In this document: positions 15,415-36,388 of the stretch, piece by piece
How positions within the stretch are numbered: the stretch's first letter is position 1
Layout: the number at the start of each line of letters is the position of its first letter
DNA from: a virus
Lineage: Duplodnaviria > Heunggongvirae > Uroviricota > Caudoviricetes
Virus record (IMG/VR): IMGVR_UViG_2671180892_000013
DNA length: 36,388 nucleotides
Reading direction: 5' to 3' (one strand)
Translations under genes and position numbers: made by a program
Notes under the pieces: model-generated
What the model saw: only the letters and a program-made list of their open reading frames with translations
What the model was told of the DNA's origin: nothing
Database searches by the model: none

Positions 15415-16221
15415 ATGAGTGTTATGAATCCAATAAGTTCTAATATATTTAATGCTGAATTTTTAAACACCCCGGCAGCGGCACTTGCCGCATGGATTTC
15501 CATTATTGGAGCTGTTATAACTTTGGTGACGATAGTTATAAGAGCACTATTCAAATATAGAAAATCTCATGATGTAATTTTGAAAAAATCAGGAATACCT
15601 GCGTTTATATTAAATTTTTTTCTTATACGAATATCATTAAAAAGGCTGCCTACTATCACATGGGCTGAAAAATCAATCACGGTTCTCTTTTCACTTCTTT
15701 TTTTGTATGCAATTTATATTTTTGGTCCAGTTTTCATCCAAGCCATTAGAACCCCACCAAATAGCACATTGCTTTATTGGATAAAGTCCGGTGAATCATT
15801 TTATATGTCAAAAAAACTGGCGACTGCAGCTACAATATTAACCACTCCTGATTGGGAAATATCAAAGGATGATTGCGAAGAGTCATCCTCTGCCAGTACA
15901 GAGAAGTACAAATCATTAACTATCGAACATAAAGAAATTCTTTGTAAACTACTAACCACTGATGAAGGGAATGCTTACATTGATGAAGAAGTCAAGAATT
16001 TCGTTAAAGACAAATTCTTTATCTATTCCTTTGCCCCAACAACCATATTTATTCTATTATGGATTTCTTTGGGTTTTATACTGACCATTCACTATTCTAA
16101 AAAAGTTAGGAAATATATTCTGACTGAACAAAAAAATGCAATTCATTGGGCATATGGTGAATTCAAGACAGAAGGAATCTATTCAATATATCAAGAGTTA
16201 GAACGTAAGACTCACCATTAA
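15415..16221 (+). CDS. hypothetical multi-pass membrane protein; cargo gene in the S-V intergenic region
   Basis: 268-aa ORF in very AT-rich DNA, several hydrophobic helices, aggtgg SD before the ATG; opposite strand to the flanking late genes; 3' end overlaps the S 3' end by 59 bp. Confidence 0.6.
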   Translation: MSVMNPISSNIFNAEFLNTPAAALAAWISIIGAVITLVTIVIRALFKYRKSHDVILKKSGIPAFILNFFLIRISLKRLPTITWAEKSITVLFSLLFLYAIYIFGPVFIQAIRTPPNSTLLYWIKSGESFYMSKKLATAATILTTPDWEISKDDCEESSSASTEKYKSLTIEHKEILCKLLTTDEGNAYIDEEVKNFVKDKFFIYSFAPTTIFILLWISLGFILTIHYSKKVRKYILTEQKNAIHWAYGEFKTEGIYSIYQELERKTHH

Positions 16222-24576: not shown

Positions 24577-25449
24577 CTACCAATTCATGCTTTCTTTTAA
24601 TTCAGTTCGCGCATTTTCAACAAGTTGTACCAACTCTTTAAGACTATCAGTTAACACTTGATGACTACCTTTATTTGTTCTATATGTTAACATATTTACA
24701 TTTAATGTTTTTTCAATAACAGGAACCATATCTCTATGAATACTTTTATCAGCCATAACCATATAATGTGGTTTAACAGCATTGTGCTTGAAAAAAGCAT
24801 CTTCCAGAAGAAGCCTTATATCGGGGTCATTAGCCCCACAACCTATAAATAGAAATGTATGCGTTAAACCCAAGGCATTAAGAATCTCGTAAAAATCTCT
24901 GTACTGTGATCTTGCCTTTGCATAATCACTTCTTGAAAAAATCAAGTTTGACGTATTATCAATTGTGCCGTGAATTTTCAGAATAACACGACCACTATCC
25001 TTTATTGCACTTGCAATATCACTATCAAAATAATTTTTGACACTTACCGTGCCTTCTGTTTCTTTACTAACATATGTTTCATATATTTTATCAAAATTAG
25101 GCGTTACAACAATCCTGCAATCTAATTTAAAAAGAAACTCATGTATATCTGCTTTAGCATAATGTGGATTCAAGAATGCATTTTTTGCAATTTCATCGAA
25201 CCTCCCTTTAGGAAGCTTTGCCTTAATTAATTCACAAGCAGTCAAATAATCTTCGTTTTTAATCAATCGTTTAATTTGTAGCGATGACCCAGAACTGAGT
25301 TCTGGTAAACATCCTTCAAGAAATTGTTTCCAACTTGGAGGCCGTGAATTACCTTTACCAACACTGTTCATTGAGACGCCTGCCCCCAGAAATAAAATAC
25401 ATTTCCGTCTCGCTAAATCGGAGACTAAGCTTTTATCCCAATTAATCAT
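24577..25449 (-). CDS. SIR2-like domain protein (predicted NAD-dependent effector), second gene of a two-gene cargo operon
   Basis: 290 aa; CILFLGAGVS glycine-rich motif near the N-terminus, TPNFD, IHGTID (HG), FLFIGCGANDPD; AT-rich; ATG overlaps the upstream ATPase stop (ATGA). Confidence 0.7.
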   Translation of the reverse strand: MINWDKSLVSDLARRKCILFLGAGVSMNSVGKGNSRPPSWKQFLEGCLPELSSGSSLQIKRLIKNEDYLTACELIKAKLPKGRFDEIAKNAFLNPHYAKADIHEFLFKLDCRIVVTPNFDKIYETYVSKETEGTVSVKNYFDSDIASAIKDSGRVILKIHGTIDNTSNLIFSRSDYAKARSQYRDFYEILNALGLTHTFLFIGCGANDPDIRLLLEDAFFKHNAVKPHYMVMADKSIHRDMVPVIEKTLNVNMLTYRTNKGSHQVLTDSLKELVQLVENARTELKESMNW

Positions 25450-26453
25450 GACTCACTCGCAGCAACATTATCAAGGATACGGGAACAAATACTTTCAAAA
25501 AGCTTCTTAGCATCGTTTACTTTTGAAAAGTGCGATCCTACTACCCCATCTTTATTTTTAAGATTAAAAATTGGAGCATTTGCTAATTGAGACAATGGAA
25601 TTAAGCTATTCATATTCTCAATTTGCCCTAAATCAAAATTCATATCTTGTTTTTTTGCGTAATTATTGATTATTTCTGCTTTCATTGCCTTAGGAATTTT
25701 AAGTGCAATTTTTTCATACGCATTAACTTTTACTTTCTCTCCCCTTACTGTTTTCCCTTTATATTGTTGCATCGCATACCCAAGAAACTTCAGTCTGCAC
25801 TGTAAAGATGAGCCATCGATGATAAAATCTTCACCTTCATTTTTAGTATAGTTTTTCAGGCCATCAGATACACCTTCCATCCAGGCCTTTAGCGAAAGGT
25901 TAATATTATTAAGAGCTAAAAGACTAAACATATCAACAGACATTGGAATAATGAAATAGTCACATGATATTATTATTGCTCTATTCAATGCACCTAATGA
26001 AGGGCCTACATCATATAAAATAAAATCATAGTCTTTATACATGGAGGACAGATGTGAAAAAACAAATGTTGTTTGTATACCTCGAGGTTTCCCTGCCACA
26101 GCGGGGTCCCAATCAGATGCTAAAAAATCCTCACTCAACGCTAACTTGGGATCCCCAGGAATCAAGTCAAAACCAAACCTATCAGTTTTTATTGGAACTA
26201 CACGAGTAGTTGCATATCCTTTTGCCCTCCGAACTGGGGTTAAGAAATTTTCAATTGTATTTCTCTTATCAGAACCATAAAGTTCATCAAGTTTTTTCTC
26301 TCCCAAACAATAAGATGTTGTGTTGCACTGAGGATCGGCGTCAATAACCAACACTTTTTTGTGCATCTCAAGACTAAGATAAGCACCAACATTACACAAC
26401 AATGTAGTTTTGCCAACGCCACCTTTATTATTGAAAAAAACTATACTGTTCAT
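25446..26453 (-). CDS. ParA/MinD-superfamily deviant Walker-A ATPase, first gene of the cargo operon
   Basis: 335 aa; NNKGGVGKTT at residues 8-17, VIDADPQ, ILYDVGPS; no ParB-like gene follows. Confidence 0.75.
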   Translation of the reverse strand: MNSIVFFNNKGGVGKTTLLCNVGAYLSLEMHKKVLVIDADPQCNTTSYCLGEKKLDELYGSDKRNTIENFLTPVRRAKGYATTRVVPIKTDRFGFDLIPGDPKLALSEDFLASDWDPAVAGKPRGIQTTFVFSHLSSMYKDYDFILYDVGPSLGALNRAIIISCDYFIIPMSVDMFSLLALNNINLSLKAWMEGVSDGLKNYTKNEGEDFIIDGSSLQCRLKFLGYAMQQYKGKTVRGEKVKVNAYEKIALKIPKAMKAEIINNYAKKQDMNFDLGQIENMNSLIPLSQLANAPIFNLKNKDGVVGSHFSKVNDAKKLFESICSRILDNVAASES

Positions 26454-33194: not shown

Positions 33195-33339
33195 AAGGCA
33201 ACATTCCTTATAGATATGGCTTGTGGCGAGCCGTAGTTTGTCGTGATTAGTAGTGAAGGCTCCAAAAGAACACTTCTGGTTCAACTTTAAGATCGCTTTT
33301 GGAATCTGTCAACGAATTTTGGATTTCCTTGGAGGACTC

Positions 33340-33915
33340 ATGGATTTCAGCAGCGGTGGTAAGAAAGTCATTGAACGTCTAGTTGAGGCGTACGGGTTCT
33401 CTACGAGACAAGCTCTTTGCGATCATTTGGGAGTATCCAAGAGCACCATGGCTACACGTTACATGCGAGACATCTTCCCTGCAGATTGGGTTTTGCAATG
33501 TGCTATTGAAACTGGTTATCCACTAGAATGGCTGGCATTCGGTATAGGGGACAAAAAACCCTCAAATATAAATGCACAAATTTTGGTACCAAAGAAAAAA
33601 TTAATTTCAGGAACGTTAATTGAAGATGGAGCATATATTTTTGATAAAACATTCTTACCTGAAAAAATATGTAATCCGTTCATCATTCAAGATCTGGATA
33701 ACGAATACATATGTAGCTCTGAATATAATGACATAAGCGATGGATTGTGGCTAATAGGCATAGACGAAAAAATTTCGGTCCGAACCCTGACCCGCTTACC
33801 TAATAACAGGTTATATGTTGAAGGAGGAAATCGTGGCTTTGAGTGTTCCAGAGATGAAATACAGGTTATTGGAATTGTGTGGTGCTGCATACTAAGAAGA
33901 GCAGAAAAATTTTAG
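33340..33915 (+). CDS. cI: CI-like immunity repressor
   Basis: ATG at 33340 preceded by ggagga; 191 aa, N-terminal HTH-like region (ERLVEAYGFSTRQALCDHLGVSKSTMATRY); 186 CI is about the same length. Confidence 0.7.
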   Translation: MDFSSGGKKVIERLVEAYGFSTRQALCDHLGVSKSTMATRYMRDIFPADWVLQCAIETGYPLEWLAFGIGDKKPSNINAQILVPKKKLISGTLIEDGAYIFDKTFLPEKICNPFIIQDLDNEYICSSEYNDISDGLWLIGIDEKISVRTLTRLPNNRLYVEGGNRGFECSRDEIQVIGIVWCCILRRAEKF

Positions 33916-33946
33916 TACTCAATATATTAAATAACTGGAGTTCTAA

Positions 33947-35278
33947 ATGCCTATTGAATATACGTTTGATTATCGTGATGAGTTCCTTCGTAAGCCTATT
34001 GCTGAAAAATTAATAGCTCTACTGAACTCTGATATTAACTTATCTCCGCTGGTTATAGATGGCGGATGGGGCACGGGAAAAACAGAGTTTTGCAAAAAAG
34101 TTGCAAATCTAATTGAAAACAATAATCAAAAACATAAAGTAGTTTACATTGATGCTTTCGCTGAAGATCATAATGATGCCCCCATTTTGACGTTAATGGC
34201 AGGTGTTGCTGCACTTTTGCCCGAAGACAAACGAAAAGAGTTGATAAGCAAAACACTACCAGCAATACGTTTTGGTTTGAAAACCATTTTCAAAGCTGGC
34301 ACTGGATGGGTGTTAAAACAAAATGCAGATGACATTGTTGATGGCTTCGAAGATGCTATCAAAGAAGCCACTTCGAGTGCAATCGACAGTACAATTGAAA
34401 CATTATTAGACGATCATATAGAAGCACAGAAAAACATCGAGACATTGAGAAATACAATTTCGCAACTTACAGAGAAATTTAAAATAACGATTATTATAGA
34501 CGAACTGGACAGATGTAAACCTACATTCGCTCTTTCAATCATAGAAAATATTAAACACATTTTTGAAATAAAAAACTTGAATTTTGTTTTGGTTGCAAAG
34601 ACTCAACAACTCAAAGCATCAATAAGCCATCTGTATGGTTTATCCATAAATGCAGAACAGTATTTAGACAAATTCATAAAATTTACATTTGTATTGCCCG
34701 ATACATTTAAACCAGACAACTATACACCTGCATACGCATCTGTCGCTTTATGGGAAATATTAAAAAATGATTCTCAAAGACTGCAAGAAGTAAACGAAGA
34801 ATGCGGGCATATTATAAAAACGATAATACAAAGAGCTAAGTTGTCTTTACGTGAAGTAGAAACATTATCGCGCCATTTTGAAATATATCAGGTGCTATCT
34901 CAATCTGGAATTGGTCCAGAAAAAATATTTGGTTATTCATTATACCGAACGTTAGGAGTGATGCTATATTCTCTAAATCGCCCTTTGGCATTAAGCTATC
35001 TAGATAATTCTGTGGATGCAGAAAGTACTATCAAAACATTAGGCTTTGAATATTTAAGTTATGATGAGGATATTTATAGTGTAGATAATACTGAATATGC
35101 TATTTATGGGATCGTACTAGACTATATTGATGCAACATCTCCATTCTTTATAAAGGATGATGAAACCAGAAAAAAATGGACTGAACATGCTACCTATAGT
35201 TTCTTTCAAAAGGGCTTAAATACTGTTCCTCCCCGAAAACTTGTTTCGTCCGCCATTGAAGTTTTAATGCTCAACTAA
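33947..35278 (+). CDS. KAP-family P-loop NTPase; cargo gene between cI and int
   Basis: 443 aa; Walker A GGWGTGKT, Walker B IIIDELDRC; strongly AT-rich codon usage. Confidence 0.7.
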   Translation: MPIEYTFDYRDEFLRKPIAEKLIALLNSDINLSPLVIDGGWGTGKTEFCKKVANLIENNNQKHKVVYIDAFAEDHNDAPILTLMAGVAALLPEDKRKELISKTLPAIRFGLKTIFKAGTGWVLKQNADDIVDGFEDAIKEATSSAIDSTIETLLDDHIEAQKNIETLRNTISQLTEKFKITIIIDELDRCKPTFALSIIENIKHIFEIKNLNFVLVAKTQQLKASISHLYGLSINAEQYLDKFIKFTFVLPDTFKPDNYTPAYASVALWEILKNDSQRLQEVNEECGHIIKTIIQRAKLSLREVETLSRHFEIYQVLSQSGIGPEKIFGYSLYRTLGVMLYSLNRPLALSYLDNSVDAESTIKTLGFEYLSYDEDIYSVDNTEYAIYGIVLDYIDATSPFFIKDDETRKKWTEHATYSFFQKGLNTVPPRKLVSSAIEVLMLN

Positions 35279-35356
35279 AGATGTATAATTGACTGATTTC
35301 ATACATTGACACTGATTATATACAGTAAAAATGCTCTCCACTGGAGGGCATTTTTT

Positions 35357-36388
35357 ATGGCAGTACGAAAACTCACCACAGGAAAATGGCTTTGCGAATG
35401 TTACCCCGCCGGACGTAGTGGGCGTCGTGTGCGTAAACAATTCGCCACCAAAGGCGAAGCACTGGCTTTTGAGCGTCACACGATGGAAGAAACCGAAGCA
35501 AAGCCCTGGCTGGGTGAATCAGTGGATCGTCGAACACTGAAAGACGTGGTTGAGCTATGGTTCAAACTACATGGTAAATCTCTGACAGCTGGGCAGCATG
35601 TCTATGACAAATTGCTGTTGATGGTTGACGCTCTAGGCAATCCTCTTGCAACCGATCTCACCTCTAAAATGTTTGCCCACTATCGAGATAAACGCCTGAC
35701 AGGCGAGATCTACTTCAGCGAGAAATGGAAGAAAGGAGCAAGCCCGGTCACCATTAACCTGGAGCAAAGCTATCTAAGTAGTGTTTTTAGCGAACTATCC
35801 CGTCTGGGCGAATGGTCGTATCCGAACCCACTGGAGAACATGCGAAAATTCACCATCGCAGAAAAAGAGATGGCATGGCTTACCCATGAGCAGATTGTTG
35901 AATTGCTGGCTGATTGCAAACGTCAGGACCCAATTCTGGCACTGGTAGTTAAGATATGCTTAAGCACAGGCGCACGCTGGCGTGAAGCCGTAAATCTTAC
36001 CCGCTCACAGGTGACCAAATACCGAATTACCTTTGTAAGAACGAAGGGGAAGAAAAACAGAAGCATCCCTATCAGTAAAGAGCTTTACGAAGAGATCATG
36101 GCGCTTGATGGGTTCAATTTCTTCACAGACTGCTATTTTCAATTTTTATCCGTGATGGAAAAAACGTCTATCGTGCTCCCTCGCGGTCAACTGACACACG
36201 TTCTGCGCCATACGTTTGCGGCGCATTTCATGATGTCGGGTGGAAATATCCTTGCTTTGCAAAAAATCCTCGGACATCACGACATAAAAATGACCATGCG
36301 TTACGCACATCTGGCACCGGATCACCTGGAAACTGCATTACGGTTTAATCCGCTGGCAACACTACCAACATCAACAGCAACTGTTTGA
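35357..36388 (+). CDS. int: tyrosine recombinase / phage integrase
   Basis: ATG at 35357 preceded by ggaggg; C-terminal catalytic signature (HVLRHTFAAHF ... HHDIKMTMRYAHL); stop codon is the last three bases of the window. Confidence 0.88.
   Translation: MAVRKLTTGKWLCECYPAGRSGRRVRKQFATKGEALAFERHTMEETEAKPWLGESVDRRTLKDVVELWFKLHGKSLTAGQHVYDKLLLMVDALGNPLATDLTSKMFAHYRDKRLTGEIYFSEKWKKGASPVTINLEQSYLSSVFSELSRLGEWSYPNPLENMRKFTIAEKEMAWLTHEQIVELLADCKRQDPILALVVKICLSTGARWREAVNLTRSQVTKYRITFVRTKGKKNRSIPISKELYEEIMALDGFNFFTDCYFQFLSVMEKTSIVLPRGQLTHVLRHTFAAHFMMSGGNILALQKILGHHDIKMTMRYAHLAPDHLETALRFNPLATLPTSTATV

What the first reader, a model, noticed from the sequence alone, without database searches (positions are those of the whole stretch)
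33947..35278. KAP-family P-loop NTPase inserted between cI and int
A 443-aa protein with Walker A GGWGTGKT and Walker B IIIDELDRC, in the KAP NTPase arrangement, occupies a 1.3-kb AT-rich insert between the immunity repressor and the integrase. KAP NTPases are enriched in defence islands but poorly characterised as stand-alone effectors. The insert also separates int from cI, which may uncouple int expression from the lysogenic promoter; an imperfect palindrome flanked by A- and T-runs (about 35328-35356) lies just before the int start and includes its ggaggg ribosome-binding site.
Basis: partly seen in the sequence, partly recalled or inferred. Interest (0 to 1): 0.65.

Follow-up and report, generated by a model that had tools for sequence, protein, structure and literature searches.

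The report
Prophage KAP ATPase in defence slot
A 186/P2-like E. coli prophage carries, between its repressor and integrase genes, a soluble KAP-family ATPase from an untested candidate anti-phage family (PADLOC PDC-S20), in a slot where sister prophages carry proven defence genes such as Old and SNIPE; it is a solid but fairly ordinary defence candidate.

Summary

The window is a 186-like prophage next to rcdA in E. coli. Among 80 viral contigs with a 99-100% identical integrase, the cI-int gap holds at least ten alternative cargoes:
- a small ORF only (41 contigs)
- SNIPE/PD-lambda-1 (13)
- P2 Old (4)
- PDC-M11 and PDC-M18
- three KAP types
- several unknown genes

This gap is therefore a defence hotspot, and the KAP gene is not a backbone gene. 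It occurs in 15 of 5426 complete E. coli genomes.

The AT-rich block begins inside cI, at about 33516, and the KAP gene always travels with that cI allele. The hairpin before int is a conserved backbone feature, present in all 89 relatives examined whatever their cargo. The KAP gene therefore does not newly uncouple int from cI.

Anti-phage activity is inferred and has not been shown. Verdict: new member of a known kind, moderate interest.

The parts
33340..33915 (+). cI immunity repressor (191 aa from the ATG used by RefSeq; the ORF can be extended to a GTG at 33253)
   Evidence: Pfam Phage_CI_repr 2e-29 and Phage_CI_C 1e-23. RefSeq annotation of the 99.9%-identical E. coli E9 locus.
33516..35298 (.). 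AT-rich variable block (cI C-terminal domain plus KAP gene) that is exchanged as a unit between sister prophages
   Evidence: Homology to sister loci ends at 33230-33560 on the left and resumes at 35298-35301 on the right, or at 35279 against L004. GC is 0.34-0.355 against 0.47-0.50 in the flanks. The cI C-terminal allele and the KAP gene are found in the same 15 genomes.
33916..33946 (+). 31-nt cI-KAP spacer with GGAG (33937-33940) 6 nt before the ATG; no terminator-like hairpin
   Evidence: Sequence. No + strand terminator-like site was called between cI and KAP.
33947..35278 (+). KAP-family P-loop NTPase, 443 aa, PADLOC candidate family PDC-S20
   Evidence: PADLOC PDLC04956 E=5e-174 over aa 4-442. 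Pfam PF07693 E=1e-51. RefSeq name 'KAP family P-loop NTPase fold protein'. dN/dS 0.19.
34061..34084 (+). Walker A GGWGTGKT (aa 39-46)
   Evidence: G39, W41, G42, G44 and K45 are invariant in 51 homologues.
34268..34417 (+). Conserved segment modelled with low confidence (aa 108-157) between Walker A and B, at the position where other KAP proteins carry inserted membrane helices
   Evidence: pLDDT below 50 for aa 108-157. Column conservation 0.63-0.68. No hydrophobic stretch: maximum 19-residue Kyte-Doolittle mean is 1.09.
34490..34516 (+). Walker B IIIDELDRC (aa 182-190)
   Evidence: D185, E186, L187, D188, R189 and C190 are invariant.
34904..35275 (+). All-helical C-terminal domain (aa 320-443), the most variable part of the family; proposed specificity/sensor region
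   Evidence: Column conservation 0.33-0.41 against 0.63-0.74 in aa 1-240. dN/dS 0.30 against 0.14. High-confidence helices.
35281..35306 (+). Inverted repeat ATGTAT...ATACAT directly after the cargo stop codon, present in every sister locus
   Evidence: L008 has ATGTTTA...TAAACAT, which keeps the pairing.
35327..35355 (+). Terminator-like hairpin (A-run, 9-bp G+C-rich core stem extended by A-U pairs, U-run) whose 3' arm holds the int ribosome-binding site GGAGGG (35343-35348); conserved backbone element
   Evidence: Fold. Present in 89 of 89 relatives as 24 distinct sequences, with G.U-preserving changes and one double compensatory change.
35357..36388 (+). Tyrosine integrase (343 aa)
   Evidence: Pfam Int_N 3e-32 and Phage_integrase 7e-22. 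The prophage abuts rcdA/ybjJ in E. coli E9.

Best explanation
The gene is lysogen-expressed cargo of a 186-like prophage. It most likely acts as a single-gene defence against superinfecting phages and belongs to the PDC-S20 group of KAP NTPases.

Proposed mechanism, with the status of each step:
1. It is transcribed with cI from the lysogenic promoter, so it is made continuously in lysogens. This is inferred from the shared strand, the 31-nt spacer, its own GGAG and the absence of a terminator between the two genes.
2. Transcription then largely stops at the conserved hairpin that abuts the int start codon, and that hairpin also hides the int ribosome-binding site. This is inferred. The hairpin and its conservation are shown.
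3. The protein is a soluble nucleotide-driven switch with the RdrA/ORC/STAND-like ATPase fold and probably assembles into rings or higher oligomers. The fold similarity is shown. Assembly is inferred.
4. Its variable helical C-terminal third recognises a phage-derived trigger or target. This is inferred from the variability pattern.
5. Because no nuclease, membrane or other toxic module is present, it probably blocks infection by ATP-dependent binding or remodelling of a phage or host factor rather than by a fused killing domain. This is inferred, with EF_KAP as the precedent.
For: Family assignment:
- PADLOC PDC-S20 at E=5e-174 over the full length, and Pfam KAP_NTPase at 1e-51.
- Catalytic motifs are intact and invariant across 51 homologues.
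- Purifying selection, dN/dS 0.19.

The slot is a defence hotspot. Among 80 contigs with 99-100% identical Int, the cI-int gap holds the following:
- a small ORF only (41 contigs)
- SNIPE/PD-lambda-1 (13)
- Old (4; PADLOC E=1.6e-234)
- PDC-M18A+B (2)
- PDC-M11A+B (2)
- three KAP types (3, 5 and 2 contigs)
- unknown genes
All these blocks are 30-37% GC. SNIPE is experimentally proven.

Homologues at 43-44% identity sit at a different accessory-gene site, between antiterminator Q and the holin, in lambdoid prophages of Salmonella and Citrobacter. A 42%-identical one lies beside a type I restriction-modification system and a NERD helicase on a Tn7-like island in Vibrio.

The gene is rare: 15 of 5426 genomes carry it, although 1326 share one or both flanks of this prophage junction. 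No close copy is present in 50,697 phage records.

Precedent: stand-alone KAP NTPases (EF_KAP plus three others; Reve from P4 satellites) protect against phages. For EF_KAP this needs Walker B and the C-terminal region and does not work by abortive infection.
Against: - No experiment on this protein or on any PDC-S20 member was found. 'PDC-S20' appears in no held paper.
- No effector domain is recognisable, so the killing or blocking step is a guess.
- No homologue has a solved structure by sequence search.
- KAP genes at 44-55% identity sit in the very same cI-KAP-int position in Enterobacter, Serratia and Yersinia prophages, and here the gene is strictly linked to one cI allele. This would also fit a role tied to lysogeny.
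- Co-transcription with cI and termination at the hairpin are not shown. The consensus terminator scan did not call the hairpin.
Confidence: 0.68

Rival explanations
1. The KAP ATPase serves the prophage's own life cycle, for example stabilising lysogeny, modulating CI or Int, or controlling excision. It would then be an optional regulatory gene rather than a defence gene.
For: It lies in the lysogenic operon between cI and int. It is strictly co-inherited with one cI C-terminal allele. Diverged KAP homologues (44-55% identity) occupy the same cI-KAP-int position in 186-like prophages of Enterobacter, Serratia and Yersinia. The fold resembles DNA-loading and initiator ATPases (ORC/Cdc6, DnaA, TnsC) as well as immune ATPases.
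Against: 77 of 80 relatives with 99-100% identical Int lack this gene and carry unrelated cargo, including Old and SNIPE. A 55%-identical allele is a clean add-on to a cI that also exists without it (98% identical CI in L004 and L005). Homologues occur far from any cI or int gene in lambdoid prophages and on a Tn7-like island. Linkage to cI is explained by recombination breakpoints lying in the conserved flanks.
Confidence: 0.1
2. The gene acts in competition between mobile elements other than classical phage defence. It might act against P4-like satellites or incoming plasmids, or it might be a host-fitness gene unrelated to infection.
For: P2-like phages are parasitised by P4 satellites and carry hotspots of competition genes. 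The founding KAP member PifA sits on the F plasmid. No effector domain constrains the target.
Against: The other occupants of the slot with known function (Old, SNIPE) act on phages. The validated stand-alone KAP proteins were scored against phages. There is nothing specific pointing to satellites or plasmids.
Confidence: 0.14
3. The gene is an inert or decaying passenger that hitch-hiked with a recombined immunity region.
For: AT-rich foreign DNA, rare in the species. In one genome only 54% of the gene matched in a single place, and the record has two matching places (H45; not examined further).
Against: The reading frame is intact with invariant catalytic motifs. dN/dS is 0.19 across alleles about 7% apart in DNA. 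Full-length conservation extends to homologues of about 40% identity in many genera.
Confidence: 0.03

Closest known systems
PADLOC phage defence candidate PDC-S20 (single-gene KAP NTPase family)
   Same: Full-length HMM match (E=5e-174, aa 4-442 against profile positions 5-448 of 450). Single gene with no conserved neighbour. Found on prophages and islands.
   Different: Nothing differs in architecture. The family itself is only a bioinformatic candidate, and no experimental test was found.
Validated stand-alone KAP NTPase defences: EF_KAP and three gut-metagenome KAP proteins (PLoS Biol 2026, PMC13552941); Reve from P4 satellites (NAR 2026, PMC13586616)
   Same: One gene with a KAP P-loop domain followed by a C-terminal region of unknown function. 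Carried by mobile elements. In EF_KAP both Walker B and the C-terminal region are required.
   Different: EF_KAP has two membrane helices and a 322-aa C-terminal region. This protein has no membrane helix and only about 125-190 C-terminal residues.
RdrA of the RADAR system (PDB 8fnt, 8fnu, 8hr8)
   Different: RdrA is about 800 aa and works with the adenosine deaminase RdrB. This protein is 443 aa with no partner gene. Identity is only 13-15%, and no sequence-level match was found.
PifA (F plasmid, excludes T7) and QatA (QatABCD)
   Same: They share the KAP NTPase core: PADLOC PifA 1e-16 and QatA 6.5e-12.
   Different: The matches cover only the NTPase core (aa 35-252 against a 720-position PifA profile). 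NCBIfam QatA scores 43 bits against a cut-off of 600. No qatBCD genes are nearby.
Defence hotspots of P2-like prophages (Rousset 2022; Moura de Sousa 2026)
   Same: Variable AT-rich cargo between conserved core genes. Rousset 2022 described a cI-int hotspot in Vibrio K139-like phages. [quoted passage not shown]
   Different: The E. coli 186-like cI-int slot is not resolved or catalogued in those texts. Here cargo and the cI C-terminal allele are swapped together.

Membership tests
KAP family P-loop NTPase (Pfam PF07693) | Profile match above the curated threshold | tested here: met
   176.4 bits against a cut-off of 20, E=1e-51, aa 15-315 against profile positions 1-290 of 293.
KAP family P-loop NTPase (Pfam PF07693) | Intact Walker A (GxxxxGKT) and Walker B (hhhhDExD) | tested here: met
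   GGWGTGKT at aa 39-46 and IIIDELDRC at aa 182-190, invariant in 51 homologues.
KAP family P-loop NTPase (Pfam PF07693) | Membrane helices inserted in the NTPase domain (typical of many members but not universal; own knowledge of Aravind et al. 2004, plus EF_KAP) | tested here: not met
   The highest 19-residue Kyte-Doolittle mean is 1.09, so no TM-grade segment exists. The corresponding region, aa 108-157, is conserved and polar and is modelled with low confidence.
KAP family P-loop NTPase (Pfam PF07693) | Fold like a solved KAP NTPase | tested here: met
PADLOC PDC-S20 | Full-length match to a PDC-S20 model | tested here: met
   PDLC04956 E=5e-174, 578 bits, aa 4-442. Three further PDC-S20 models match at 3e-59 to 1e-28.
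PADLOC PDC-S20 | Single-gene system (no conserved partner) | tested here: met
   Neighbours differ completely across contexts: 186-like cI/int, lambdoid Q/holin, and a Tn7-like island.
PADLOC PDC-S20 | Demonstrated anti-phage activity | not testable with these tools
   No held paper mentions PDC-S20. PDC stands for 'phage defence candidate'.
RADAR (RdrA/RdrB) | Adjacent RdrB adenosine deaminase and an RdrA of about 800 aa | tested here: not met
   The neighbours are cI and int only. The protein is 443 aa. No RADAR model appears among the PADLOC hits.
QatABCD (QatA) | QatA equivalog score and qatBCD neighbours | tested here: not met
   NF041923 scores 42.9 bits against a cut-off of 600. There are no neighbouring qat genes.
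PifA | Full-length similarity to PifA (about 720 aa) | tested here: not met
   Only aa 35-252 match profile positions 43-255 of 720, E=1e-16.
P2-like prophage defence hotspot | Many unrelated cargoes between the same conserved flanks | tested here: met
   At least ten cargo types among 80 contigs with 99-100% identical Int. The right junction is fixed at 35298-35301.
P2-like prophage defence hotspot | Known defence systems among the alternative cargoes | tested here: met
   Old at 1.6e-234, PD-lambda-1/SNIPE at 4.7e-120, PDC-M11A/B and PDC-M18A/B. SNIPE is validated.

The most novel reading that the evidence does not exclude
PDC-S20 proteins would be a minimal, effector-less and membrane-free form of KAP immunity. 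In this reading an RdrA-like ring ATPase stops phages on its own, by ATP-driven capture or remodelling of a phage or host factor recognised by its hypervariable C-terminal helices. In addition, in 186-like prophages such defence genes would be exchanged together with the repressor's C-terminal domain as 'immunity plus defence' cassettes. The cI-int slot would then be a third major reservoir, only coarsely catalogued so far, that also holds at least four cargo types with no match to any defence model.
Probability: 0.25. Interest if true: 0.6.

Novelty: new member of a known kind. Interest (0 to 1): 0.35.

Why it matters
If the gene protects, it would turn a purely computational candidate family (PDC-S20) into a validated one. 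The family has more than two thousand homologues and is common in prophages of Enterobacterales. It would also give a small, soluble KAP ATPase without an obvious effector, which is a convenient model for how KAP/RdrA-like ATPases sense and stop phages. The more useful by-product is the map of the cI-int slot of E. coli 186-like prophages. It has sharply defined flanks and carries Old, SNIPE, PDC-M11, PDC-M18 and three KAP types, plus several cargoes with no annotation. Those unannotated cargoes are ready-made candidates for defence discovery. For prophage biology, the conserved terminator-like hairpin that hides the int ribosome-binding site suggests how int is kept low whatever cargo is placed upstream of it.

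Tried and rejected
- Searching for a KAP-free relative with the same cI allele, to define the insert, found none. The cI C-terminal part occurs only in the 15 genomes that carry the KAP gene. A sister allele pair (L004 and L005) was used instead.
- PDB sequence searches with the single protein and with the family profile gave nothing usable.
- The literature search for 'PDC-S20' returned zero papers.
- The Reve sequence was not obtainable because no supplement is held. Brenes and Laub 2025 is not held. Papers on phage 186 gave no statement about a terminator before int.
- The consensus promoter and terminator scan was uninformative in this AT-rich DNA. It found 13 promoter-like sites against 9.2 expected, and it missed the int hairpin, probably because the stem extends into the U-run.
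- An own promoter for the KAP gene was considered. No convincing one was found, so co-transcription with cI is preferred.
- Membership of RADAR, Qat or PifA-type systems was considered and rejected on partner genes, protein length and scores.
- A membrane-associated KAP like EF_KAP or Tmn was considered and rejected on hydropathy.
- The genome-contig scan gave only four loci, two of them fragments, and added little.

Full report
**1. What is there**

The window is a 186-like (Peduoviridae) prophage of E. coli. Host genes ybjM and ybjL lie at its left end. The integrase lies at its right end. In the 99.9%-identical E. coli E9 chromosome the integrase is followed by rcdA and ybjJ.

ORF 33947-35278 (+) encodes 443 aa. 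The Walker A motif GGWGTGKT is aa 39-46 and the Walker B motif IIIDELDRC is aa 182-190. The upstream gene is a 186-type CI repressor. It starts at 33340 in RefSeq and carries the Phage_CI_repr and Phage_CI_C domains. The downstream gene is a tyrosine integrase starting at 35357.

**2. Identity of the protein**

| Library | Result |
|---|---|
| Pfam | KAP_NTPase, 176 bits (cut-off 20), E=1e-51 |
| PADLOC | PDC-S20 model PDLC04956, E=5e-174, end to end |
| PADLOC | PifA 1e-16 and QatA 6.5e-12, NTPase core only |
| NCBIfam | QatA 43 bits against a cut-off of 600 |
| PHROGs | family 8614, function unknown |

'PDC' means phage defence candidate. No held paper mentions PDC-S20.

The gene is functional. 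dN/dS is 0.19 against a 92%-identical allele. More than 2384 homologues were found, and the closest 120 are nearly all about 440-460 aa. The catalytic residues are invariant in a 51-sequence alignment.

There is no membrane helix. The maximum 19-residue Kyte-Doolittle mean is 1.09. This differs from many KAP proteins, including EF_KAP.

**3. Structure**

The AlphaFold2 model built on the 51-sequence alignment has mean pLDDT 80 and pTM 0.77. Residues 108-157 are modelled with low confidence although they are conserved. Residues about 255-443 form confident helices.

The best solved matches are:
- ORC/Cdc6, TnsC, DnaA and NLR/STAND ATPases, with lower scores.

No solved structure is detectable by sequence, even with the family profile. 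No nuclease, deaminase, TIR, SIR2 or pore module is present.

Conservation falls from 0.63-0.74 (aa 1-240) to 0.33-0.41 (aa 321-443). dN/dS rises from 0.14 to 0.30 over the same division. The C-terminal third is therefore the natural candidate for a specificity domain.

**4. The cI-int slot is a defence hotspot**

1326 of 5426 complete E. coli genomes share one or both flanks of this junction, but only 15 carry this KAP gene. Annotated sister loci at the same chromosomal site carry the following between cI and int:

| Locus | Cargo between cI and int |
|---|---|
| L004 | a 63-aa ORF only |
| L005 | that small ORF plus a 55%-identical KAP gene |
| L006 | a 30%-identical KAP gene of 483 aa |
| L007, and the isolated phages vB_EcoM-813R9 and KP12 | a DUF4041/T5orf172 protein |
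| L008, L009 | membrane proteins of about 320 aa |

PADLOC calls the DUF4041 protein PD-lambda-1 at E=5e-120. PD-lambda-1 is SNIPE, a proven membrane nuclease that cuts phage DNA during injection.

A census of 80 IMG/VR contigs whose Int is 99-100% identical gave these cargo counts:

| Cargo | Contigs |
|---|---|
| small ORF only | 41 |
| SNIPE | 13 |
| L005-type KAP | 5 |
| P2 Old (PADLOC E=1.6e-234) | 4 |
| unknown two-gene cargo | 4 |
| membrane proteins of the L008/L009 type | 3 |
| this KAP | 3 |
| 505-aa KAP | 2 |
| PDC-M18A+B | 2 |
| PDC-M11A+B | 2 |
| unknown 488-aa protein | 1 |

Every variable block is 30-37% GC against about 50% for the backbone.

The literature already names this region at coarse resolution. 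Rousset 2022 described a cI-int hotspot in Vibrio K139-like phages. [quoted passage not shown]

**5. Boundaries of the 'insert'**

The right junction is sharp. Homology resumes at 35298-35301 in seven loci that carry cargo, and at 35279 against L004. The left junction lies inside or upstream of cI: 33515 against L004 and L005, 33560 against L006, and 33230-33252 against the others.

The exchanged unit is therefore about 1.78 kb and includes the cI C-terminal domain. That cI segment is found in exactly the same 15 genomes as the KAP gene. In the IMG/VR census each cargo is likewise tied to a cI type.

A clean cassette swap can be seen for the sister allele. L005 differs from L004 by 1350 bp replacing 123 bp, with 98% identical CI on both sides. 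The linkage to cI is most simply explained by recombination within the conserved flanks.

**6. Wider distribution**

KAP homologues of 44-55% identity occupy the same cI-KAP-int position in 186-like prophages of Enterobacter ludwigii, Serratia marcescens and Yersinia enterocolitica.

Homologues of 43-44% identity lie between antiterminator Q and the holin, on the opposite strand, in lambdoid prophages of Salmonella and Citrobacter. One 90%-identity cluster there has 2139 member sequences, and its representative is from S. Typhimurium. A 42%-identical homologue lies next to a type I restriction-modification system and a NERD helicase on a Tn7-like island in Vibrio harveyi.

No close copy occurs in 50,697 phage records. 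The family is therefore mobile cargo of temperate phages and islands, not a structural or replication gene.

**7. Expression and the int hairpin**

cI and the KAP gene are separated by 31 nt, with GGAG 6 nt before the ATG and no terminator-like site between them. Co-transcription from the lysogenic promoter is the simplest reading but remains an inference.

Between the KAP stop codon and int (78 nt) lie two hairpins:
- ATGTAT...ATACAT at 35281-35306.
- AAAAAUGCUCUCC-ACU-GGAGGGCAUUUUU at 35327-35355, followed by U and then AUG.

The second hairpin has the anatomy of an intrinsic terminator, and its 3' arm contains the int ribosome-binding site. It is present in all 89 relatives examined, in 24 distinct sequences and two stem families. 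Several changes preserve G.U pairs. One is a double compensatory change (AGCCCUC/GAGGGCU to AGUCCUC/GAGGACU in L078 and L096). G.U-preserving changes argue for an RNA structure on this strand.

The hairpin is a backbone feature, independent of cargo. The KAP gene therefore does not specifically uncouple int from cI.

**8. Mechanism and rivals**

The best-supported explanation (confidence about 0.68) is as follows. The protein is a lysogen-expressed, single-gene anti-phage protein. It would work as a nucleotide-driven switch, probably an oligomer as in RdrA. Its variable C-terminal helices would recognise a phage cue. It would act without a fused toxic domain. The 2026 demonstrations for EF_KAP, three metagenomic KAP proteins and Reve give direct precedent.

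The rivals are:
- A lysogeny or life-cycle role (about 0.10). The repeated cI-KAP-int arrangement supports it. Absence of the gene from 77 of 80 near-identical relatives, and homologues at unrelated sites, argue against it.
- Other competition between mobile elements, or a host-fitness role (about 0.14).
- An inert passenger (about 0.03). The selection data argue against this.

**9. Verdict**

The finding is real and correctly identified. It is a new member of a known kind: a rare allele of a catalogued but untested candidate family, sitting in a prophage hotspot that is already known at coarse resolution. Interest is moderate (0.35). The most valuable leads are the unannotated cargoes in the same slot and the conserved hairpin that abuts the int start codon.

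Noticed in passing
window 24577-26453 (- strand): Two overlapping AT-rich ORFs (GC about 0.33) lie in the classic P2 hotspot between portal GpQ and replication protein GpA. One is a ParA/MinD-like AAA_31 ATPase (25446-26453, 335 aa) and the other a SIR2_2 protein (24577-25449, 290 aa). PADLOC gives only domain-level hits (ThsA 1e-21, LmuA 3e-20, PDC-M28B 8e-5), so this may be an unclassified SIR2+ATPase defence pair. The prophage would then carry at least two defence loci.
   Followed up: partly
window 15415-16221 (+ strand): A 268-aa DUF6216 protein lies in an AT-rich island (GC 0.33) inside the tail-gene region, on the opposite strand to the surrounding late genes. This position is a known accessory slot in P2-like phages.
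   Followed up: no
window 35327-35355; same position in L001-L009, L019-L098, L099: A terminator-like hairpin abuts the int start codon and contains its ribosome-binding site. It is conserved in 89 of 89 relatives, with 24 sequence variants, two stem families, G.U-preserving changes and one double compensatory change. It is likely a conserved attenuator or translational occluder of int.
   Followed up: partly
window 35281-35306 and the equivalent position in L001-L009: A second inverted repeat (ATGTAT...ATACAT) begins within a few bases of every cargo's stop codon and marks the fixed right-hand junction of the hotspot. L008 keeps the pairing with different bases (ATGTTTA...TAAACAT). Its function is unknown. 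It could be an RNA structure or a protein-binding or recombination site.
   Followed up: no
L022 1755-3411; L046 1945-3411; L008 2119-3108; L009 2117-3061; L097 908-1972: Cargoes in the same cI-int slot with no PADLOC match and no Pfam match above the curated threshold: a 349-aa protein plus a 201-aa multi-pass membrane protein; a 488-aa protein; coiled-coil membrane proteins of about 320 aa; and a 354-aa protein with a hydrophobic C-terminus placed ahead of PDC-M11. All are AT-rich and are candidates for new defence genes.
   Followed up: partly
L008 1170-2108; L009 1227-2105; L036 948-1871: Some sister prophages encode a CI repressor of about 300 aa with two tandem CI-type N-terminal DNA-binding domains. 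BLAST shows the N-terminal domain matching twice. In L008, L009 and L036 this double-headed CI sits upstream of a non-standard cargo: membrane proteins in L008 and L009, and a 505-aa KAP in L036.
   Followed up: no
L004 1826-2017; L005 1826-2008; L099 5804-5989: The commonest occupant of the slot is a 60-63-aa cysteine-rich protein with a signal-peptide-like N-terminus (Pfam YdcA in L099). It is retained upstream of the L005-type KAP cassette. Its function is unknown.
   Followed up: no
L017 12240-17258: A Citrobacter lambdoid prophage that carries a KAP homologue at the Q-holin site also carries a colicin-like gene, a GIY-YIG protein and a SLATT plus reverse-transcriptase pair nearby. That prophage is therefore rich in accessory and defence genes.
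   Followed up: no
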